Shown here piece by piece: positions 1,219 to 11,635 of a DNA stretch of 11,635 nt. Each line of letters opens with the position of its first letter. Positions within the stretch are counted from its first letter, which is position 1. Below the pieces are notes generated by a model, which did not search any database, was not told the DNA's origin, and saw nothing but the letters and a program-made list of their open reading frames with translations. Source of the DNA: a virus (taxonomy: Duplodnaviria > Heunggongvirae > Uroviricota > Caudoviricetes); IMG/VR virus record IMGVR_UViG_2660238190_000006; one strand, written 5' to 3'. The position numbers were made by a program, and so were the translations under genes.

Positions 1219-1260
1219 TTTTTTTCGTGTTTTTTCAGTATGCGCATACTGGATATGCGA

Positions 1261-1320
1261 ACAGATACAACATGCAACAATGAGCAACAATGAGCAACAA
1301 TGCGGAACAACTACGAACAA
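1261..1320. repeat. Six tandem 10-bp-phased repeats ending in AACAA (two exact TGAGCAACAA units); candidate Int/AlpA (excisionase-like) binding array
   Basis: Seen: acagatacaa / catgcaacaa / tgagcaacaa / tgagcaacaa / tgcggaacaa / ctacgaacaa with strict 10-bp register, in the int-alpA intergenic region. Function is inferred. Confidence 0.6.
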
Positions 1321-3705: not shown

Positions 3706-4005
3706 ATGAAACTTAAATATTCTGGCTTAACTGCCAGTGGCAACACTCACCCTAAATTTACGCGCGGTGATATTTACCGCGACCAGTACGGCGGCACGGT
3801 AATGATTAAGGGCGTGGAAGAACGGCGCGTAACCTACCGCCGTGAAGGTTACGAATATGATTGCGTGATGCCTGTTTATCAGTTCCGGCGTGATTTTTCT
3901 CTGGTACAGACCGCGCCGCATAACGTGCCCACCAGCAACGCCAGGGCACGGGCAAACATCCAGAAGCTGAAAACCATGGTTAACGGATTCAGGGGCAAGA
4001 AATGA
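3706..4005 (+). CDS. Hypothetical protein (99 aa)
   Basis: RBS GGAGA about 10 nt upstream; stop overlaps the replicase start (ATGA). No family recognised. Confidence 0.6.
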   Translation: MKLKYSGLTASGNTHPKFTRGDIYRDQYGGTVMIKGVEERRVTYRREGYEYDCVMPVYQFRRDFSLVQTAPHNVPTSNARARANIQKLKTMVNGFRGKK

Positions 4006-5402
4006 AAAGCGCACCGAACTTAAAAAAACAGCCTTACGACAAGATGACCGAAGTCATCATTTTTGCGGGTAGTGATGCGTGGGCACATGCGAAACAGTGG
4101 CAGGAACAGGACGGGCGACTGGCTGGCGATAATGTGCCTCCCATTGTGCTGGCTGATGATCAACTGGATGAACTGGCAGACCTGAGAATCATCGACGAGG
4201 GGCGCTATTGTGTCCGGCTGTACAAGGCAGGCCACATCAGGCCATCAAATATTAATGCCATTGCGCACAAGCTGGCGGCGGCGGGCGTAACTGATGCGAA
4301 TTATTACCCCGAAGGGATGCACAGCCATATGCGGGAGAACTGGCGCGAATACCTGGAACGGGTGCGCGGGAAAGAGCCGGCGGAAGAAAAAAACCACCAG
4401 CGAAAAACCACGCTACCGATGAGCGTTGGATCTACCGGATACGACACGCAACTGGATTACGTGGTTAAGGGGATTATTCCGGCGGTATCGCTATGCAGCA
4501 TATACGGGGCTAGCGGGTCCTATAAATCATTCCTTGCCGGATCGTGGGCGTGCCATGTTGCCACTGGTCGCCAGTGGGGAGGCCGCAGGGTTGCACATGG
4601 TGCGGTTCTCTATGTGGTTGGTGAAGGCGGTATAGGTGTTCCGCGTCGTGTAAAAGCCTGGGAGGTTGTGCACGATGAGCAGGTGAAAAATCTGTATCTG
4701 GTAAACCGCCCCATCTTTCCGGCTGCCCCGCTTGATGTTGATGAAATGGTTATCGCTGCCCGTCAGGTGGAGCGGGAAACGGGTAAACCTGTACGCATGA
4801 TTATTCTGGATACGCTGGCGCGTTGCTTTGGTGGGAATGATGAAAATGATTCCCGTGATATGGGGGCGTTTATCCGTGGTTGTGACGAACTGAAACGACG
4901 CACAGGGGCCACGGTGCTGGTGGTTCACCATTCCGGCAAGGATGAGACGAAAGGCGCGCGCGGTTCCAGTGCATTTCGTGCTTCGCTGGATGCTGAATAC
5001 CGGATACGCAGGGAGGACGCAGGAAGCGAAGCGCTGGTTATCTCATGCACCAAAATGAAGGACGCGGAGGAACTCAAAGAAGCCGCATATGACTTACGCG
5101 TGGTGGAGCTTTTTACCGACGCTGACGGTGAATTAATCACGTCGCTGGTGGTGGTGGATGATCCGCGCCCTCCTGTTGAACTGGAGCGCATCGAGGAGGC
5201 AGGGAACAAGACGGAAAACCATACCGCGCTATGGGGGTGCATCCGTTCACGCACACAGAACGGCGACAAGTGCACGATCCAGATGTTACGTGATGACATG
5301 AAAAAGCTGGGGTATGAAATGAAAAACTTCCGGCGCTGGCTGTACAAGCTGGAAAAAGATGGGGTTATTCGTATCGATGGGGATGATGTAGCGCCGCTAT
5401 AA
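4002..5402 (+). CDS. Replication protein: RecA/DnaB-like P-loop ATPase (RepA/AAA_25-type helicase) with an N-terminal domain of unknown function
   Basis: 466-aa ORF. Walker A GASGSYKS (in IYGASGSYKSFLAG), Walker B-like hydrophobic-D stretch MIILDTLARCFGG, and HHSGKD (sensor-like) typical of RepA/DnaB-family replicative ATPases found in satellite pri-rep modules. Iteron cluster lies immediately downstream. Confidence 0.8.
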   Translation: MKSAPNLKKQPYDKMTEVIIFAGSDAWAHAKQWQEQDGRLAGDNVPPIVLADDQLDELADLRIIDEGRYCVRLYKAGHIRPSNINAIAHKLAAAGVTDANYYPEGMHSHMRENWREYLERVRGKEPAEEKNHQRKTTLPMSVGSTGYDTQLDYVVKGIIPAVSLCSIYGASGSYKSFLAGSWACHVATGRQWGGRRVAHGAVLYVVGEGGIGVPRRVKAWEVVHDEQVKNLYLVNRPIFPAAPLDVDEMVIAARQVERETGKPVRMIILDTLARCFGGNDENDSRDMGAFIRGCDELKRRTGATVLVVHHSGKDETKGARGSSAFRASLDAEYRIRREDAGSEALVISCTKMKDAEELKEAAYDLRVVELFTDADGELITSLVVVDDPRPPVELERIEEAGNKTENHTALWGCIRSRTQNGDKCTIQMLRDDMKKLGYEMKNFRRWLYKLEKDGVIRIDGDDVAPL

Positions 5403-5593
5403 AAGTGAGGAGCAAAAGCGAGGGGGATAGAAAGAGGGCCAAAATTAGCCCGCTCCCCCTCACTTTTCGACCTGTATACATCCTCAAAAGTGAGGGGTAA
5501 AAAAATACTTATGAAACACACACATAGAAAAACCGAAAATCCCAACTGCGACGAAGTGAGACGCTTGAAAAAGTGAGGCGAAAAAGTGAGAGG
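5401..5593. promoter_or_regulatory. Iteron cluster (AAAGTGAGG repeats, both orientations) with an AT-rich spacer; putative replication origin and/or operator
   Basis: Seen: AAAAGTGAGG at 5401-5410, inverted copy at 5455-5467, AAAAGTGAGGGG 5486-5497, GAAGTGAGAC 5553-5562, AAAAAGTGAGG 5568-5578, AAAAAGTGAGAGG 5581-5593, plus degenerate AAAGCGAGGGGGA 5415-5427. An AT-rich tract at 5497-5545 lies between copies. Position directly 3' of the replicase gene is typical for satellite/PICI origins (inference). Confidence 0.55.
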
Positions 5594-5602
5594 TTGCGAG
5601 AA

Positions 5603-6165: not shown

Positions 6166-6576
6166 ATGACAGCACAAATTGCAGCTTACGGGCGGCTGGT
6201 GGACGACCCGCAGGTAAAACAGACCAGCAAGGGTACACCGATGACGCTGGCGCGTATGGCGGTATCGCTGCCATGCAGCCAGGCACAGGATGGACAGGCG
6301 ACGTTATGGCTATCGGTCATCGCATTTGGTAAGCAGGCCGACTTCCTGGCTAAACATCAAAAAGGCGACGTTGCCAGCGTATCCGGCACGATGCAGGTCA
6401 GCCAGTGGACCGGACAGAACGGGGAAACGCGGCAGGGTTATCAGGTTATTGCAGACAGCGTAATCAGTGCCCGTGCGGCACGTCCTGGTGGGAGCCGACG
6501 CAAGACCACAGGCACACAGGGTAATCAGCCACCAGCGGGAGGCGATGACCCTTACGGTGATGATATTCCGTTCTGA
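6166..6576 (+). CDS. ssb: Single-stranded DNA-binding protein (SSB-like)
   Basis: 136-aa ORF. OB-fold-like N-terminal region, Gly/Gln/Pro-rich linker and C-terminal acidic tip DDPYGDDIPF, matching the conserved DDDIPF tail of bacterial SSB. RBS GAGGTGG upstream. Confidence 0.75.
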   Translation: MTAQIAAYGRLVDDPQVKQTSKGTPMTLARMAVSLPCSQAQDGQATLWLSVIAFGKQADFLAKHQKGDVASVSGTMQVSQWTGQNGETRQGYQVIADSVISARAARPGGSRRKTTGTQGNQPPAGGDDPYGDDIPF

Positions 6577-6588
6577 GGGGTGGGGACG

Positions 6589-6861
6589 ATGGTACATGAC
6601 CGCATAGCGGAAGAACTGGAGGCGAAAGGCTTTTACCGGAGAGCGTCGGCGCGATGGGGTGAAGTCATGCAACTGGTGGAGACAGACAAGGAACGGCATC
6701 ACATCACGATGCGACGGCTGGAATGTTCCAGGAAGGCACAGAGGCCACCGGAGCCGCCGGATAATTACGGAGACCTGAAAAAGGCGGTCGATCGCACTTA
6801 TGCCGAAATGGGTATGGATGGTGCTGGTGATGAAATATGGCGAAATTACCAGGACAGATAA
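6589..6861 (+). CDS. PerC-family-like transcriptional activator (tentative)
   Basis: About 90-aa ORF. AEELEAKGFYRRASARWGEVM resembles the PerC/Pch N-terminal signature (LE..G.WRRAA..W) as remembered. ATG 6589 with GAGGGG RBS is preferred over GTG 6580. Followed by a terminator. Confidence 0.5.
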   Translation: MVHDRIAEELEAKGFYRRASARWGEVMQLVETDKERHHITMRRLECSRKAQRPPEPPDNYGDLKKAVDRTYAEMGMDGAGDEIWRNYQDR

Positions 6862-6933: not shown

Positions 6934-7111
6934 CGCTGACCGGATCGGCATATTTTACCCGAACTGAATCATGATTATTCTCGCCCGTGGTGCCAGGACG
7001 CTGGGGCCACTTTCCCGCCTGTTAATGTGCCCGCCAATATTCATTACCAGGCGGGAAAACGATCGGTGCGATTGCTGATTTCCTTATGAAAAACGGTTGA
7101 GTGTTTGCCGC

Positions 7112-7148
7112 GTCCTGGAGTTCCTTACTTAACTTCAGGACTTTTTTT
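7112..7148 (+). terminator. Strong intrinsic terminator/attenuator hairpin ending in T7, directly abutting the capsid start codon and sequestering its RBS
   Basis: Seen: 11-bp stem GTCCTGGAGTT (7112-7122) pairing with AACTTCAGGAC (7131-7141), one G-U pair, 8-nt loop, then TTTTTTT (7142-7148), then ATG at 7149. The AGGA RBS (7137-7140) is inside the 3' arm. Confidence 0.6.
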
Positions 7149-8306
7149 ATGCCGAGAATAATCGAATTACGCCAGCAGAAAACCGCCATTAAAAATCAGA
7201 TGCGCGACATGCTGGAGAACGCGGAAAAAGAAAACCGCAGCCTTAACGATGCTGAGGGCGCAAAATTTGACGAATTACGCGCTAAAGCTGAATCCCTCGA
7301 TAAAGACATCTCCCGCCTTGAGGCCGTTGCTGACGAAGAGCGCAGTAAACCAGGCAAAAACAGCCAGACCACTGACCCCGCCGAACTACGTCACTACATT
7401 CTGACAGGTGAAACCCGCGCATTGAGTACAGGCGTTCCCGCTGATGGTGGTTATACCGTTATCCCCGAACTGAACACCGAAATCATGCGAATGCTGACGG
7501 ATGAATCCACCATGCGCCGCATCTGTACCGTGAAGAAAATCAGCAGCAACGAGTTTAAGCAGCTTGTTTCCGCTGGCGGTGCGACCGTTAACCACGGTGA
7601 AGAGGGTAAGGCACGCGAACAGACCAGCACCCCGCAGATTAACGAGGTGAGCATTAAGCTGTATCCGGTCTATGCGTACCCGCGCACCACGCAGGAAATC
7701 GTGGATTTTTCCGATGTGGACATCCTTTCATGGCTGACGGGCGAGATTGGCGACACCTTCACGGAAACCGAAGAAAGCGATCTGGTTGTGGGCGACGGTG
7801 ACAAAAAAGCAAAAGGCTTTTTATCCGTACCCCGTGCAGAGAAGAACGACAAAGAGCGTGATTTTGGTACGTTGCAGGTAATTAAACCTTCCGAATCTCT
7901 GGCGTGGACATCTGCGGACCCGCTGATCGACCTGAAATTTGCATTACGTAAAAAATACCGCAAAAACGCGGTCTGGGTGGTTAACTCCACGACGGCGGCA
8001 AAACTCCAGAAGGTGAAGAACGCGAACGGTGATTACATCTGGCGTGACCGTTTACAGGCGGGTGATCCTGATACGTTGCTGGGCCTTCCGGTCGAATATC
8101 TGGAGTTTATGCCGGATAACGTTATTGCCCTGGGTGACTTCAAACGCGGTTACTACATTGTTGATCACGAAACAGGTGTTCGCACCAGACCGGACAACCT
8201 CACAGAGCCGGGCTTCATCAAAATTTTCGCGCAGAAATATTTAGGCGGTGGCGTGGTGGATTCGAACGCGATCAAGATTCTGGAACTGCCACAGGACGAC
8301 GATTAA
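7149..8306 (+). CDS. Major capsid protein, HK97 fold, with N-terminal coiled-coil scaffold (delta-like) domain
   Basis: N-terminal coiled coil RIIELRQQKTAIKNQMRDMLENAEKENRSLNDAEGAKFDELRAKAESLDKDISRLEAV matches the HK97-family MCP delta-domain pattern. GDGDKKAKGFLS fits the conserved G.G...p.Gil region. Start 7149 chosen over GTG 7101; start is uncertain. Confidence 0.85.
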   Translation: MPRIIELRQQKTAIKNQMRDMLENAEKENRSLNDAEGAKFDELRAKAESLDKDISRLEAVADEERSKPGKNSQTTDPAELRHYILTGETRALSTGVPADGGYTVIPELNTEIMRMLTDESTMRRICTVKKISSNEFKQLVSAGGATVNHGEEGKAREQTSTPQINEVSIKLYPVYAYPRTTQEIVDFSDVDILSWLTGEIGDTFTETEESDLVVGDGDKKAKGFLSVPRAEKNDKERDFGTLQVIKPSESLAWTSADPLIDLKFALRKKYRKNAVWVVNSTTAAKLQKVKNANGDYIWRDRLQAGDPDTLLGLPVEYLEFMPDNVIALGDFKRGYYIVDHETGVRTRPDNLTEPGFIKIFAQKYLGGGVVDSNAIKILELPQDDD

Positions 8307-8345: not shown

Positions 8346-8918
8346 ATGGGTGAAAAAATTATGAAGAGTATGGAAATCCGGTCATCGGAAATCACCACCA
8401 GCGGAGCCGGTACGCTGACGGGCTACATTGTTCGCTGGGATAAGCTTTCAGAACTGTTATGGGGTGAGTTTTACGAAAAATTCCAGCGGGGGGCGTTTAC
8501 TGAATGGCTTGCGGCGGGTAATGACGTTCGCGGCCTGTATGAGCATGACCACAGCATGTTACTGGGGCGCACCCGTTCCGGCACGCTGAAACTGGAAGAG
8601 GACGAAACAGGGTTACGCTTTGAACTGACCCCACCGGATACCAGTACAGGGCGCGACGTTATCGAACTGGTTAAACGAGGTGATATATCCGGCATGAGCT
8701 TTGGCTTTCGTTCCCGTAAGGATGTATGGGATACCACAACAGATCCATGCGTGCGCACCGTGCTGGTGGCGGAACTGTACGAAATTACCGTTACATCCGT
8801 ACCGGCTTACCCTGATTCCGACGTGGAGCTGGCCCGCCGTTCCCTGTATGAGCAGCACCCCGAAAAAATGCCGCGTGCGGATAATCGCCGCTGGTGGGCG
8901 GATTTAGCGGGGGTGTGA
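8346..8918 (+). CDS. Prohead maturation protease, HK97 family (S78/U35-like)
   Basis: Motifs GYIVRWDKLSELLWGEFYEKFQRGAF, LYEHDHSMLLGRT, GLRFELTPPDTSTGRDVIELVKRGDISGMSFGF and YEITVTSVPAYPDS match the HK97 prohead protease family pattern. Start may instead be ATG 8361 or 8370. Confidence 0.85.
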   Translation: MGEKIMKSMEIRSSEITTSGAGTLTGYIVRWDKLSELLWGEFYEKFQRGAFTEWLAAGNDVRGLYEHDHSMLLGRTRSGTLKLEEDETGLRFELTPPDTSTGRDVIELVKRGDISGMSFGFRSRKDVWDTTTDPCVRTVLVAELYEITVTSVPAYPDSDVELARRSLYEQHPEKMPRADNRRWWADLAGV

Positions 8919-10438
8919 TATGTGGCCTTTCCAGGGTGTGCCCGCACGTAAAAGGGCCGATGCGTGGCAGACCCATTGAGCTGGAGCCGTGGCAGCAGTT
9001 CGCCTTTGCGTGCATCCTCGGCTTTAAGGTTAAGGCCACCGGACGGCGCAAATACACGAGCGCCTTTATCGAAGTGCCGCGCAAAAATGCGAAATCCACG
9101 ACCGCCGCGATTCTGGCTAACTGGTTTCTGATTATGGAGAACGGTCAGCAGGATATCTACACCGCAGCGGTGAGCCGTGACCAGGCGCGGATCGTCTTTG
9201 ATGATGCGCGTCAGATGTGCCTTTTATCCCGACCGTTACGCAGGCGGGTGAATATTCAGGCGCATAAGGTGATGCACCCGAAAAGCAACAGCCTGTTAAA
9301 GCCGCTGGCAGCAAAAGCGGCAACCATCGAGGGAACAAACCCCAGCCTTTCCATCGTGGACGAATACCACTTGCACCCCGATAACGGCGTTTATTCCGCG
9401 CTTGAGCTGGGGATGGGCGCACGCCCCGAAGGGCTGTTATTTGCTATTACCACATCAGGCAGTAACGTCGTTTCAGCCTGTAAGCAGCACTATGATTATT
9501 GCTGCCAGATCCTGGACGGCGAAGAGGTCAACGATTCAATTTTTGTACTGATTTACGAACTGGACGACGAAAACGAGGTTGATGATCCGGCGATGTGGAT
9601 AAAGGCGAACCCTAATATTGATGTTTCCGTGGATCGTGAAAAACTGGCCTCAACCATCCAGAAAGCGCGGGGTATTCCGTCGCAGTGGGTGGAGATGATG
9701 ACAAAGCGATTTAATATCTGGTGCCAGGGGGCTACCCCGTGGATGGGTAACGGCGCATGGGCTGAGTGTGCCGGAACGTTCACGGAGGAAGATTTACACG
9801 GCCAGGAGTGTTACGCGGGGCTGGACTTATCATCAACCAGCGATATTTCCAGCGTGTGCTATGCCTTTCCGGTCGGTAAAACCATTATGCTGGTTTCCCG
9901 TCACTATCTGCCGGAATTTCAGCTACAGAACCCCGCCAATAAAAACCGCGCCATCTATCGTCAGTGGGCTAAAGCAGGCTGGATACGCACAACGCCTGGC
10001 GACTGCATTGATTACGACCGGATCAGAGATGACATCATGCAGGACGCGGAGAAATTTAATATCAGGCTGGTGGGCTTTGATACGTGGAACGCCACGCATC
10101 TCAGAACGCAATTACAGGGGGCAGGTTTTGAGGTGGAGCCGTTCCCGCAAACCTACCTCAGATTCAGTCCGGCGGCGAAATCGTTCGAAGTTTTTGTTAA
10201 CCGCAGGGTGATTGTGCATCGTGGCGATCCGGTGTTGTCCTGGTCGATGAGTAACGTCGTGATGCAGAGTGACGCGAACGCCAATATCAAGCCGAACAAG
10301 AAAAAATCACCGAACAAGATAGACCCGAGCGTGGCGGCGCTGATGGCGTTTGGTACATTCCAGGCAGAGCATGAGGATTTTGCTTTTGATATAAGCGACA
10401 GCCACCGCCAGAAACTGGAAGAATTTAGCGGGGTGTAA
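8894..10438 (+). CDS. Terminase large subunit (Terminase_1 / COG4626-type), with a short N-terminus
   Basis: Motifs recognised: LEPWQQF; P-loop EVPRKNAKSTTAA; AAVSRDQARIVF; Walker B SIVDEYHLH; ITTSG; WIKANPNIDVSV; GLDLSSTSD; C-terminal KPNKKKSPNKIDPSVAALMAF. Start ambiguous (GTG 8894 overlapping the protease end, GTG 8936, or ATG 8960). Confidence 0.85.
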   Translation: MGGFSGGVICGLSRVCPHVKGPMRGRPIELEPWQQFAFACILGFKVKATGRRKYTSAFIEVPRKNAKSTTAAILANWFLIMENGQQDIYTAAVSRDQARIVFDDARQMCLLSRPLRRRVNIQAHKVMHPKSNSLLKPLAAKAATIEGTNPSLSIVDEYHLHPDNGVYSALELGMGARPEGLLFAITTSGSNVVSACKQHYDYCCQILDGEEVNDSIFVLIYELDDENEVDDPAMWIKANPNIDVSVDREKLASTIQKARGIPSQWVEMMTKRFNIWCQGATPWMGNGAWAECAGTFTEEDLHGQECYAGLDLSSTSDISSVCYAFPVGKTIMLVSRHYLPEFQLQNPANKNRAIYRQWAKAGWIRTTPGDCIDYDRIRDDIMQDAEKFNIRLVGFDTWNATHLRTQLQGAGFEVEPFPQTYLRFSPAAKSFEVFVNRRVIVHRGDPVLSWSMSNVVMQSDANANIKPNKKKSPNKIDPSVAALMAFGTFQAEHEDFAFDISDSHRQKLEEFSGV

Positions 10439-10451
10439 TGAGGTCAGCAGC

Positions 10452-10733
10452 ATGACAGAAGCCGAAATAACGGGATTAATCCGCCGCGTTGCCGGAATCA
10501 GCCAGCAGGCTGACGAACAGGCCACGCAGCCGGACAGCGTGACAGCCGAAAACTATGCGCGTGTTGTTGCTGAGGTGATGCGCCGTGATGGTATAGAACT
10601 TAATGGCGTGGATATGCGCAACATACGAACCAGAGCTCTTGAGTTGCTGGCCTACCGTCGCCGCGTGGAGATGTATCGGGAGAAGGAGAAAATAACGTAC
10701 CACTGGAAGAAGCCGGAGCGGTTGCGGCGGTAA
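10452..10733 (+). CDS. Hypothetical protein (93 aa) downstream of TerL
   Basis: ATG with RBS GAGGT 8 nt upstream, 13 nt after the TerL stop. Possibly a head-completion/connector-like or packaging accessory protein, but no family recognised. Confidence 0.55.
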   Translation: MTEAEITGLIRRVAGISQQADEQATQPDSVTAENYARVVAEVMRRDGIELNGVDMRNIRTRALELLAYRRRVEMYREKEKITYHWKKPERLRR

Positions 10734-11026
10734 CTGGTTGATATTCCCGACGGACCAAAAATGGGTGGCTACATCCCTCGCTTCTGAGGACTGTTAACAA
10801 GCTGCCTGAAAGACAGTCACAAACTACGAAATTTTCGCAGTTTAATTAATGATCAGCTTAATCGCTAACCCGCTGATATTTTCGGAAACCTCAATTTGAG
10901 GAAGTCGGCGCGGTAACTCGCTGAACTTTAAGCAAAGTGCAAAATTGCGCTTGCTGAATAATCATTATGATTACGCAGATGATTAAGGAATGACCGAAGG
11001 CGGAAATTCGCCTGTGGTTAATGGGG

Positions 11027-11170
11027 GAGTTGCAGATCTGCAACTCGACCATGAAACTACGGAAACTACCCGTAGTTTGGGTAGTAAGAGTAACACCCAG
11101 ATTTTGGGTCTTACTCGTGATACCCAAATTTGGGGTATCAGTGGCAACCATAACGACTTTCGTTACGGTT
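11027..11170. other. Array of five consecutive perfect or near-perfect palindromes/hairpins in non-coding DNA (candidate packaging site, operator array or structured RNA)
   Basis: Seen: 20-bp perfect palindrome GAGTTGCAGATCTGCAACTC (11027-11046); hairpin AAACTACGG/CCGTAGTTT (11054-11078); ACCCAGATTTTGGGT (11095-11109) with flanking GAGTAA/TTACTC; GATACCCAAATTTGGGGTATC (11119-11139); AACCATAACG/CGTTACGGTT (11146-11170). Confidence 0.5.
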
Positions 11171-11369
11171 GATGCTTTTACCCCATTGGGGGAAAGGTAT
11201 TACGATAATCATAACACCTACCGAACAGGTAAAGCCCACCAGCCTGATTAACGTTTAACCGGAAAAAAATTCCGGTAGGTGGGGATCCCCATATCGACAT
11301 TAACGCCCCTCATGAATTGGTGCGCTTCCCCCTGGAAAGATGATCCGCCTGTATATTTCTTGTGTCTAT

Positions 11370-11384
11370 TTGTTCCACGTTGTT
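11370..11384. repeat. 15-mer TTGTTCCACGTTGTT (copy 2)
   Basis: Seen: exact match to 6919-6933; shared TATTTGTTC prefix as well. Confidence 0.5.
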
Positions 11385-11470
11385 TCATACAGTGCACCGA
11401 ACGGTGTAGTCACTGGTGTAGTCATTTTGCGATTTTTGGCACTTTTTGCGGTGAAAATTATTTAATTAAA

Positions 11471-11635
11471 TCAACGTGTTATGTGAAATAAGTTATATAT
11501 AACAGCAATAAATAATGCGAGAATAAACGGCACGATGATCTCGGCGGCAAAACGGATACCGCAGAGAATAATGACCAGCATTCCCAACATAATGACGATT
11601 TTTAGGCCATTGAGCGTGATGATCGGCTTTGCCAT
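11471..11635 (-). pseudogene. tqsA: 5' fragment (54 codons) of an AI-2E-family transporter gene (TqsA/YdgG-like), apparently truncated at the island junction
   Basis: Minus-strand ORF starting at the last base of the window: [54 protein letters not shown]. The N-terminal 45 or so residues match my recollection of E. coli TqsA; the ORF then diverges and stops. It is shorter than 60 aa, so absent from the supplied track. Confidence 0.45.

What the first reader, a model, noticed from the sequence alone, without database searches (positions are those of the whole stretch)
10990..11300. Palindrome-dense 730-bp non-coding tail after the last gene
Five strong hairpins/palindromes occur back to back (including a 20-bp perfect palindrome and two related ACCCA(A/G)ATTT(T)GGGT-type symmetric sites), followed by CCGGAAAAAAATTCCGG and GGGGATCCCC. 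The ORFs predicted here merely translate the palindromes. Candidates: a cos/pac packaging recognition region for the island's own TerL, an operator array for a dimeric repressor, or a highly structured small RNA (P4 immunity uses a processed RNA). The similarity between the two ACCCA...GGGT sites argues for protein recognition.
Basis: seen in the sequence. Interest (0 to 1): 0.65.

Follow-up and report, generated by a model that had tools for sequence, protein, structure and literature searches.

The report
Palindrome-repeat trailer of E. coli phage satellites

Summary
The window is a capsid-forming PICI-type satellite inserted in tqsA. Its non-coding tail (10734-11498) has about 5 times the hairpin density of the rest of the island, and the region folds far better than shuffles (z about -9.7 on both strands).

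Comparison with 66 distinct tails shows a modular mosaic with four parts:
- Co-oriented units of a 19-nt box matching the IHF consensus plus a hairpin of variable sequence.
- Hairpin + ACGCAGATGATTAAGG units.
It is 94.5% identical across islands, against 77.6% at third codon positions of the adjacent gene.
- An att-proximal arm with Chi, two palindromes and doubled integrase repeats.

The tail always follows a conserved 93-aa gene. It does not track packaging, replication or integrase type.

It is not cos/pac. EcCICFT073's mapped cos sites lie elsewhere, the core co-occurs with lambda-type cosN, and 12 of 20 cf-PICI tails lack it. It is not the origin, a tRNA or an Rfam family. It cannot be one repressor's operator array, because 33 different hairpin sequences occur.

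Best reading (inferred, about 0.4): a satellite-private analogue of BIME-1/RIP extragenic palindromes. Function is untested.

The parts
10452..10733 (+). Conserved 93-aa backbone gene that always precedes the tail. Predicted helical, with a basic C-terminus ...YHWKKPERLRR. Its stop codon lies inside the first repeat box.
   Evidence: 1019 homologues, all unnamed. Codon-position identities are 90.1% at positions 1+2 and 77.6% at position 3. AlphaFold pLDDT is 70 with three helices, and there is no PDB fold or sequence hit. It is present in EcCICFT073, O157 and tRNA-Ile-site satellites that have different packaging modules.
10731..10766 (+). Type-A unit 1: box TAACTGGTTGATATTCCCG (reverse complement matches the IHF consensus WATCARNNNNTTR) plus a degenerate hairpin ACCAAAAATGGGT.
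10776..10843 (+). Two further recurrent hairpin modules: CCTCGCTTCTGAGG+ACTGTTAAC, and AAACTACGAAA/TTTCGCAGTTT.
   Evidence: Read from the sequence. The same modules occur in L003, L018 and L019.
10866..10901 (+). Type-A unit 2: box TAACCCGCTGATATTTTCG (IHF-consensus match) plus hairpin CCTCAATTTGAGG.
   Evidence: Compensatory variants at four of its pairs.
10914..10952 (+). Type-A unit 3: degenerate box TAACTCGCTGAACTTTAAGC plus extended hairpin AAAGTGCAAAATTGCGCTT.
10959..10988 (+). Type-B unit: palindrome TAATCATtATGATTA followed by the conserved CGCAGATGATTAAGG. The right arm ATGATTA is repeated, which allows an alternative pairing.
   Evidence: The same layout with different arm sequences occurs in L003, L017 and L005.
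10993..11018 (+). Hairpin ACCGAAGGCG-GAAATT-CGCCTGTGGT. It is homologous to the 26-36-bp palindrome ACCGAGGGCGGAATTCCGCCTTCGGT, which lies after the core in other islands, so module order is shuffled.
11022..11144 (+). Optional 123-bp core module made of four hairpins: hpA 11027-11046; hpB 11054-11078 (alternative 11065-11085); hpC 11079-11125 (three helices); hpD 11118-11140.
   Evidence: 24 variants from 50 copies, 94% mean column identity, 90 invariant columns. 96.2% of stem cells are paired, with one compensatory pair (T-A to T.G to C-G) and G.U-type changes at 7 sites against 1 C.A site. Present in 706 of 5426 E. coli genomes and never annotated. Presence is independent of packaging type. 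Two copies in L018 and L067.
11145..11196 (+). Hairpins CAACCATAACGA-CTT-TCGTTACGGTTG and TTTTACCCCATTGGGGGAAAG.
   Evidence: Stems are kept while loops differ (CTT, ACA, ATTAC) in L003 and L017. The CCNCCATTGGNGG hairpins recur with compensatory arms (CCCCC/GGGGG, CCACC/GGTGG) in L005.
11229..11498 (+). Att-proximal arm. It holds a Chi site on the minus strand (CCACCAGC, 11236-11243); the nested hairpin CCCACC...ACCGGAAaaaaaTTCCGGT...GGTGGG (11235-11283); the GGGGATCCCC palindrome (11281-11290); doubled direct repeats GGTGTAGTCA (11403-11412 and 11415-11424), which are probably integrase arm sites; and the island end at 11498.
   Evidence: About 90% identical to EcCICFT073 and O157 islands with related integrases, and replaced by other arms in islands with other integrases. 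Repeats. Host junction. A 'doubled DNA sequence motif' in attP regions of these satellites is reported in 10.1101/2022.07.18.500453.

Best explanation
The palindromes belong to a conserved, non-coding trailer about 765 bp long. E. coli/Shigella PICI-type satellites carry it between their last backbone gene (a 93-aa protein) and attR.

What is shown: it is a mosaic of short repeat modules whose number and order differ between islands.
- (i) Co-oriented units spaced about 48-54 bp apart where adjacent. Each has a 19-nt box whose reverse complement fits the IHF consensus WATCARNNNNTTR, followed at a fixed distance by a 4-12-bp hairpin. The hairpin sequence varies while the pairing is kept.
- (ii) Hairpin + ACGCAGATGATTAAGG units.
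- (iii) An optional, very conserved 123-bp block of four hairpins (11022-11144).
- (iv) The att-proximal arm with Chi, two palindromes and doubled integrase repeats.

What is inferred: it works like the BIME-1/RIP class of extragenic palindromes.
- It is transcribed as the untranslated end of the late operon. The hairpins fold in the RNA, protect the 3' end, and hinder read-through into attP, cargo genes and host genes.
- On the DNA, the boxes bind and bend with IHF next to attP.

It is not a packaging site, an origin, a known RNA family, or the operator set of one repressor.
For: Shown:
- Hairpin excess and folding z-scores. 66 distinct tails have a median of 20 hairpins per kb.
- 140 box+hairpin units lie in the operon's orientation against 20 in the other. 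74 of 79 unique units carry a hairpin, with 33 different hairpin sequences.
- The box matches the IHF consensus 120 times in one orientation in 46.4 kb of tails, against 2.0 +/- 1.3 in shuffles. 58 of 66 tails have at least one match.
- Box and unit layout are kept in a locus whose 93-aa protein is only 45% identical.
- The first box overlaps the stop codon. Internal units repeat the gene's last bases, GGCG(C)GGTAAC.
- Hairpin arms show compensatory changes. Pairs beyond the 4 required ones are 61-71% Watson-Crick.
- Loops are A-rich on the sense strand.
- G.U-compatible changes outnumber C.A ones: 7:1 in the core, 11:4 in unit arms, 11:8 in other hairpins.
- In some tails an intrinsic terminator follows the first units, which places those units inside the transcript.
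- The core is 94.5% identical, against 77.6% at third codon positions of the adjacent gene.
- The tail is linked to the 93-aa gene across rppA-type, TerS-type, DUF1441-type and cf-PICI satellites.

Inferred: IHF binding, transcription of the tail, and any effect on RNA stability or read-through.
Against: - There is no direct evidence of transcription or of IHF binding.
- The window's tail has no canonical terminator or promoter on either strand.
- Half of the hairpins have centres of 2 nt or less, so they are true DNA palindromes. RNA hairpins do not need this.
- The strand bias of wobble changes is weak. It is absent in a cruder count (18 vs 16) and in the att-proximal modules.
- The loops and linkers of the core are as invariant as its stems. 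This points to sequence-specific recognition rather than plain hairpins.
- The RNAalifold covariation term is only -0.54.
- The REP consensus is absent, so the link to BIME is analogy, not membership.
- High identity of the core could reflect recent spread by recombination rather than selection.
Confidence: 0.4

Rival explanations
1. Extended attP arm. The tail acts only at the DNA level, as a nucleoprotein platform of IHF plus AlpA/RDF and integrase that assembles the excisive or integrative complex.
For: - IHF-consensus boxes are abundant.
- The tail abuts the att core and the doubled arm repeats at 11403-11424.
- In the circular form, 93-aa gene, tail, attP and int are contiguous.
- Many of the palindromes are true DNA palindromes.
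- An alternative module in core-less tails carries four GTGAC repeats phased at about 10 bp, which is typical of RDF sites.
Against: - Only the last 270 bp or so co-vary with integrase type.
- The units and the core are shared by islands with different integrases and att sites: tqsA, the phoQ side, tRNA-Ile and prophage capsid genes.
- Boxes lie up to 770 bp from the core, far beyond known attP arms.
- 33 different palindromes cannot serve one sequence-specific protein.
Confidence: 0.2
2. Target array of an island-encoded protein, for example the co-inherited 93-aa basic helical protein. The protein could bind the box and hairpin as DNA, or as nascent RNA in a nut-like (boxA+boxB) manner.
For: - The tail is strictly linked to the 93-aa gene.
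- Each unit is a conserved linear box, then at a fixed distance a GC-stem hairpin with an A-rich loop, co-oriented with transcription.
- The protein's C-terminal helix is Arg/Lys-rich.
- A hypothetical gene ('1792') in the EcCIEDL933 packaging module is needed for full transfer, but its identity is unresolved.
Against: - The protein has no recognisable nucleic-acid-binding fold.
- The box stays the same where the protein has diverged to 45% identity, which fits a host factor better.
- The units lie after the last gene, not ahead of genes to be read.
- Loops are 1-4 nt, not boxB-like pentaloops.
Confidence: 0.12
3. No function. The tail holds recombination scars and self-propagating quasi-palindromes, kept perfect by template switching, in a cargo hotspot.
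For: - Copy number, order and presence of modules vary freely. The core is optional: 36 tails with it, 30 without.
- Modules are shuffled and truncated.
- The region after the packaging module is described as a variable region expected to hold immune genes.
- Template switching can mimic compensatory change.
Against: - The core is more conserved than first and second codon positions of the neighbouring gene.
- The box is conserved across 45%-identity relatives.
- Units have a strict orientation, 140:20.
- Every one of the 66 tails is hairpin-rich, 8-32 per kb.
Confidence: 0.15
4. A trans-acting small RNA or RNA sponge, analogous to P4 CI or CsrB, encoded by the core.
For: - The block is a compact run of four hairpins with very high primary-sequence conservation, including its loops.
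- G.U-type changes favour the sense strand, 7:1.
Against: - No Rfam family matches, even at E = 10.
- Sequences flanking the core differ between islands, so there is no conserved promoter or terminator.
- A divergent copy (75% identity) loses hpC.
- GGA motifs are not enriched (manual count in the sequence).
Confidence: 0.08
5. cos/pac packaging site recognised by the island's own or the helper's terminase.
For: - The region is non-coding and lies after terL.
- It contains a 20-bp perfect palindrome and IHF-like boxes, as lambda cosB does.
Against: - No cosN-like sequence occurs in the tail.
- In EcCICFT073 the only exact cosN copies, taken to be the published cos1 and cos2, are at L005 15559 and 16298, outside the tail. 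Deleting both cos sites abolishes transfer, and cloned cos1 alone is enough for RppA-dependent packaging.
- The core coexists with lambda-type cosN.
- 12 of 20 cf-PICI tails lack the core.
- The same core serves four packaging types.
- No phage in INPHARED shares the tail.
- This island has no TerS, HNH or portal.
Confidence: 0.03

Closest known systems
BIME-1 / RIP (repetitive IHF-binding palindromic) elements of E. coli, built from REP palindromic units
   Same: - Extragenic, placed directly after the last gene of an operon.
- A mosaic of short palindromic units in variable number and order.
- An IHF consensus sits next to the palindromes.
- Pairing is conserved more than sequence.
- Expected to act both in the transcript (hairpins) and on the DNA (IHF).
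   Different: - No REP consensus, even with 3 mismatches allowed.
- Palindromes are mostly 11-15 nt, against about 35 nt for REP.
- The repeats are private to PICI satellites, with a median of 1 locus per genome, rather than dispersed over the chromosome.
- The mosaic contains a unique 123-bp conserved core.
lambda-type cos (cosQ-cosN-cosB with IHF site I1), and EcCICFT073 cos1/cos2
   Same: - Non-coding.
- Near the packaging genes.
- Contains IHF-type sites and dyad symmetry.
   Different: - No cosN.
- The cos sites of the homologous satellite lie elsewhere.
- The core is optional and independent of packaging type.
lambda attP P arm (IHF, Xis and Fis sites plus integrase arm sites)
   Same: - Lies next to the att core.
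- Has IHF-consensus sites.
- Has doubled arm-type repeats at 11403-11424.
   Different: - Three times longer than known arms.
- The distal 500 bp do not co-vary with integrase type.
- Filled with hairpins of variable sequence.
lambda nut sites (boxA + boxB) and HK022 put RNAs
   Same: - A conserved linear box is followed at a fixed distance by a short GC-stem hairpin with an A-rich loop.
- The units are co-oriented with transcription and repeated.
   Different: - Located after the last gene.
- No N-like protein identified.
- Loops are 1-4 nt.
- No NusB/E boxA consensus.
P4 CI / P1 C4 immunity RNAs
   Same: A structured non-coding element in a satellite.
   Different: No covariance-model match, a different location, and no promoter.

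Membership tests
lambda-type cos site | cosN nicking sequence (GGGCGGCGACCT or a close variant) | tested here: not met
   No match with 3 or fewer mismatches in 10776-11498. The nearest hit is a 3-mismatch chance-level match at 10763, and the whole window holds 6 hits against about 10 expected by chance. Exact copies occur in EcCICFT073 outside the tail.
lambda-type cos site | Position immediately upstream of terS/rpp, and presence tied to the packaging type | tested here: not met
   The tail lies downstream of terL and the 93-aa gene. The core is present or absent within every packaging type.
lambda-type cos site | Virion DNA ends map to the site | not testable with these tools
   This needs end-mapping of packaged cf-PICI DNA.
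REP/BIME elements | REP (PU) consensus GCC(G/T)GATGCG(G/A)CG | tested here: not met
   No match with 3 or fewer mismatches on either strand of the tail.
REP/BIME elements | Extragenic mosaic of palindromic units placed after an operon's last gene | tested here: met
REP/BIME elements | IHF consensus adjacent to the palindromes (BIME-1/RIP) | tested here: met
   By sequence only: 120 matches against 2.0 expected. Binding was not tested.
REP/BIME elements | Hundreds of dispersed chromosomal copies | tested here: not met
   Median of 1 place per genome, maximum 6, always in satellite tails.
Rfam RNA families (including phage and satellite immunity RNAs) | Covariance-model score at or near the gathering threshold | tested here: not met
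   The best hits in the tail score 12-17 bits against thresholds of 33-100.
Intrinsic terminators | GC-rich stem followed by a U tract | tested here: not met
   No strong candidate in the window's tail: the tool scan gives only two weak, chance-level hits (10719-10736 on +, 11109-11095 on -), and a stricter scan (at least 6 T in 8) finds none. With the stricter scan only 8 of 66 tails have one on the + strand.
Iteron-type satellite origin | Direct and inverted iterons flanking an AT-rich stretch next to the rep gene | tested here: not met
   The window's iterons (AAAAGTGAGG) are at 5401-5600, just after the rep gene. No comparable iteron array was seen in the tail.
attP arm | Arm-type integrase repeats, and co-variation with integrase type | tested here: inconclusive
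   Met for 11229-11498. Not met for 10734-11228, which is shared between islands with different integrases.
Operator array of one dimeric repressor | Several copies of one palindromic consensus | tested here: not met
   33 different hairpin sequences occur, and the two ACCCA...GGGT sites are not conserved as a pair.

The most novel reading that the evidence does not exclude
The trailer may be a fourth, unrecognised functional module of Gram-negative PICIs, alongside integration, replication and packaging. In this reading it is a cis-acting array read by host IHF together with the co-inherited 93-aa basic protein. It would control what happens to late transcription at the attP boundary (nut-like anti-termination or insulation) or control intasome assembly, and it would be needed for efficient transfer. 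The 123-bp core and the GTGAC/terminator module would be exchangeable regulatory cassettes for the same slot.
Probability: 0.15. Interest if true: 0.75.

Novelty: new variant of a known kind. Interest (0 to 1): 0.5.

Why it matters
- **Prevalence.** Part of this tail is present in 1326 of 5426 complete E. coli genomes, and the 123-bp core in 706. It is never annotated, and the PICI and cf-PICI papers read here do not mention it.
- **Constraint.** The core is more conserved than the coding gene next to it and travels with the satellite backbone whatever the packaging strategy. It is therefore a candidate cis-acting determinant of satellite biology.
- **Annotation.** Provirus callers cut the satellites at the last gene, so the tail is missing from many database entries.
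- **Engineering.** If the tail controls transfer, integration or late-operon expression, it matters for PICI-based delivery vehicles.
- **cos mapping.** The cos site of cf-PICIs is still unmapped. This work argues it should be sought elsewhere, for example in the hnh-terS gap.

Tried and rejected
- **cos/pac.** Rejected on the grounds given under the rival explanations.
- **Origin.** Rejected: the iterons sit after the rep gene.
- **Known RNAs and tRNA.** Rfam at gathering and at E = 10 and ARAGORN gave nothing.
- **Phage relatives of the tail.** None in INPHARED.
- **Shared palindrome with phages.** The 20-mer palindrome also occurs inside KilA-N genes of lambdoid and Stx phages. Only 21 nt are shared, about what chance allows in a collection of that size, so it was not used as evidence.
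- **Rpp homology of the 93-aa protein.** None. Its predicted fold matches nothing in the PDB.
- **Cross-genus comparison through the 93-aa protein.** Failed: only Shigella among the GTDB species representatives.
- **Strand test by wobble counts.** Suggestive in the core (7:1), not overall.
- **Small ORF in the core** (MKLRKLPVVWVV...). No Shine-Dalgarno sequence, a frame-breaking deletion in L026 and an early stop in L212, so rejected.
- **Core as an integrase arm site.** GTAGT motifs resemble GGTGTAGTCA, but the core is identical across integrase types, so rejected.
- **CsrA-type sponge.** GGA is not enriched.
- **LexA and lambdoid operator look-alikes.** None convincing.
- **Identity of EcCIEDL933 gene '1792'.** Could not be resolved from the text.

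Full report
**1. Context**

The window is a PICI-type phage satellite of E. coli. Its genes are:
- integrase, 1-1218
- RepA-like helicase, 4002-5402
- SSB, 6166-6576
- PerC, 6580-6861
- HK97-type capsid, 7101-8306
- prohead protease, 8346-8918
- TerL, 8894-10438
- a 93-aa protein with no family, 10452-10733

The tail is 100% identical to the capsid-forming PICI of strain PCN033, but the window lacks 3,048 bp of that island. Window 8928 joins L001 11195. This removes the portal, head-closure, connector, HNH and TerS genes and the first ~50 codons of TerL.

Homology to uninterrupted tqsA starts at 11499, so the island ends at 11498. 246 complete genomes carry an island at this site.

**2. The observation**

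| Region | Perfect-stem hairpins per kb |
|---|---|
| 10990-11300 | 38.6 |
| 10734-11340 | 28 |
| rest of the island | 6.0 |
| shuffles | 5.9 +/- 3-5 |

The region folds 45-50 kcal/mol better than dinucleotide shuffles on both strands, with z = -9.7 and -9.5. The excess begins at the stop codon of the 93-aa gene, not at 10990.

**3. What the tail is made of**

I collected 66 distinct tails from complete E. coli genomes and IMG/VR contigs. All are hairpin-rich: the median is 20 per kb and the range 8-32. They are mosaics of a few module families.

*(a) Type-A units.*
- Each has a box TAAC-NNN-YTGAT(A/T)TTYYCG, then 22-24 nt after the start of the box a hairpin.
- There are 140 copies in the orientation of the operon against 20 in the other.
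- There are 79 unique units; 74 have a hairpin, and 33 different hairpin sequences occur. Examples are CCTCAAtTTGAGG, CAGCCaacGGCTG, TCCCCCAtTGGGGGA, AACGCAAaaTTGCGTT, CCCAaaaaTGGG and CCTGCAaTGCAGG.
- The reverse complement of the box is the IHF consensus WATCARNNNNTTR, and part of the box variation (positions 2-3 of the four N's) falls in the consensus N positions.
- The consensus is matched 120 times in one orientation in 46.4 kb of tails, against 2.0 +/- 1.3 in shuffles. 58 of 66 tails have at least one match, and common spacings are 48, 54, 96 and 135 bp.
- The first box overlaps the stop codon of the 93-aa gene. Internal units repeat the gene's last bases.
- The window has units at 10731-10766, 10866-10901 and 10914-10952.

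*(b) Type-B units.* A palindrome is followed by ACGCAGATGATTAAGG. The window's copy is at 10959-10988.

*(d) Further hairpins, 11145-11196.*

*(e) The att-proximal arm, 11229-11498.* It contains a Chi site, the ACCGGAA/TTCCGGT hairpin nested in CCCACC/GGTGGG, GGGGATCCCC, and the doubled repeat GGTGTAGTCA.

Module order differs between islands. For example, the ACCGAGGGCGGAATTCCGCC palindrome lies before the core in the window and after it in L002, L211 and L212.

**4. Conservation**

- Parts of the tail occur in 1326 of 5426 complete E. coli genomes, and the core in 706. Nothing is ever annotated there.
- The tail always follows the 93-aa gene, in satellites with four different packaging modules: rppA type (EcCICFT073), capsid + decoration + TerS type (O157), ClpP/capsid fusion + DUF1441 type, and cf-PICI.
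- Over 21 comparisons, the 93-aa gene is 90.1% identical at codon positions 1+2 and 77.6% at position 3. The non-coding core is 94.5% identical.
- In the core, 90 of 135 columns are invariant, loops included.
- A locus whose 93-aa protein is only 45% identical still has four type-A units with the same box and new hairpins, followed by an intrinsic terminator.

**5. Structure tests**

- *Core.* 96.2% of stem cells pair. One pair shows the path T-A, T.G, C-G. Seven stem sites vary to G.U on the + strand against one to C.A.
- *Covariation in the core.* The RNAalifold covariation term is small (-0.54) because the block hardly varies.
- *Divergent copy.* A copy at 75% identity keeps hpA (one compensatory G-C to A-T change), a shortened hpB and a 7-bp hpD, but not hpC.
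- *Other window hairpins.* Of 54 Watson-Crick sites, 30 are invariant and 7 show more than one Watson-Crick type. G.T variants number 11 and A.C variants 8.
- *Unit arms.* Pairs beyond the four required ones are 61-71% Watson-Crick, with G.T 11 and A.C 4.
- *Cruder count.* A count over all single-mismatch hairpins gives 18 against 16.
- *Loop lengths.* Half of all hairpins have centres of 2 nt or less, so they are true palindromes.

Pairing is clearly maintained. Whether it acts in the RNA or in the DNA is not settled; the sense-strand RNA reading has only weak support.

**6. What it is not**

*Not cos/pac.*
- No cosN-like sequence occurs in the tail.
- In EcCICFT073, deleting cos1 and cos2 abolishes transfer, and cloned cos1 suffices for RppA-directed packaging (PMC6092414, PMC6739421).
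- I located the only two exact cosN copies of that island at L005 15559-15570 (+), upstream of rppA, and at 16298-16309 (-), upstream of the 93-aa gene. I take these to be cos1 and cos2. The tail starts at 16656.
- Several islands have both lambda-type cosN and the core.
- Among cf-PICI-type tails, 8 have the core and 12 do not.

*Not the origin.* The iterons AAAAGTGAGG flank an AT-rich stretch at 5401-5600.

*Not a known RNA, tRNA or tmRNA*.

*Not intrinsic terminators*.

*Not REP*.

*Not shared with any phage in INPHARED*.

**7. Most likely mechanism**

Shown:
- the repeat architecture
- its orientation
- its linkage to the 93-aa gene
- its conservation
- the match to the IHF consensus

Inferred:
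- The tail is the untranslated end of the late operon. In some islands a terminator follows the first units.
- Its hairpins act in the transcript, and its boxes bind IHF on the DNA next to attP.

This is how the BIME-1/RIP extragenic palindromes of E. coli are thought to work. I file the tail as working like them but not as a member, because the REP consensus and the dispersed distribution are not met. I put this at about 0.4.

The main rivals and their weights are:

| Rival | Weight |
|---|---|
| DNA-only recombination platform | 0.2 |
| No function: recombination scars in a cargo hotspot | 0.15 |
| Target array of the 93-aa protein | 0.12 |
| Trans-acting RNA | 0.08 |
| cos/pac | 0.03 |

The core and an alternative module never occur together: 36 tails have the core only, 17 the alternative only, 13 neither, and 0 both. 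The alternative module has four phased GTGAC repeats plus terminators on both strands. This suggests the two modules fill the same slot.

**8. Literature**

The PICI and cf-PICI papers read here do not describe the tail. One of them calls the region after the packaging module a variable region expected to encode immune systems. Searches combining PICI terms with small RNA, IHF or antitermination found nothing relevant.

Noticed in passing
window 8920-8935 (junction); compare L001 8147-11194: The island is a deletion derivative of a capsid-forming PICI. 3,048 bp are missing: portal, head-closure, connector, HNH, a small ORF, TerS and the first ~50 codons of TerL. The TerL frame has no native start, so the element cannot build or fill its own capsids.
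   Followed up: partly
whole window (Chi at 873, 2044, 4916, 5144, 5933, 6195, 8762, 8890, 10066 on +; 3113, 3929, 4394, 6529, 8395, 11236 on -): The satellites are very rich in Chi (GCTGGTGG) on both strands. The window island has 15 in 11.5 kb, and four islands run at 0.7-1.3 per kb. Chromosomal flanks have 0-0.22 per kb, and a 50-kb stretch of CFT073 that is mostly a lambdoid prophage has 0.04 per kb. This may protect the linear or rolling-circle DNA of elements that lack a Gam function.
   Followed up: partly
window 11027-11046; L008-L125 (e.g. L009 4770-4789): The palindrome GAGTTGCAGAT(C/T)TGCAACTC also lies inside the KilA-N domain gene of many lambdoid and Stx phages, and it is kept in two divergent versions of that gene. 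The shared stretch is only 21 nt, so this could be chance.
   Followed up: partly
L018 4522-5089; L067 937-1506: In two IMG/VR contigs the 123-bp core is duplicated about 435 bp apart. The copies flank an origin-like cassette: TTGCGGGTTA x3, an AT-rich stretch, then TAACCCGC x3.
   Followed up: no
tails of L156, L160, L178 and 14 others: Core-less tails often carry an alternative module. It has four GTGAC repeats phased at about 10 bp, then ACGGTTTAACCGT and GACGTGGCCAACGTC-T6, which are terminator-like on the two strands. It never occurs together with the core.
   Followed up: partly
window 5401-5600: The satellite origin: direct and inverted iterons AAAAGTGAGG around an AT-rich stretch, immediately after the RepA-like helicase gene.
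   Followed up: yes
window 1255-1300: Three tandem copies of GCAACAATG(A/C) lie just downstream of the integrase gene. Their role is unknown.
   Followed up: no
L127-L206: 35 of 80 IMG/VR loci end exactly at the stop codon of the 93-aa gene (locus length 3282). The provirus records therefore stop at the last gene, and the tail and att site are left out of the database entries.
   Followed up: no
L001 10581-10703: The hnh-terS gap of the intact cf-PICI is G-rich (GACGGGGTGGGGGGCG...CCCGACCCCGCCGGGC). By analogy with HK97-type phages it is the likeliest place for the still unmapped cf-PICI cos site. This gap is deleted in the window.
   Followed up: no
window 10452-10733: The 93-aa protein family is restricted to Escherichia and Shigella among GTDB species representatives. 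It has no Pfam, PDB or fold match. It may or may not be the 'hypothetical gene 1792' whose loss severely reduces EcCIEDL933 transfer.
   Followed up: partly
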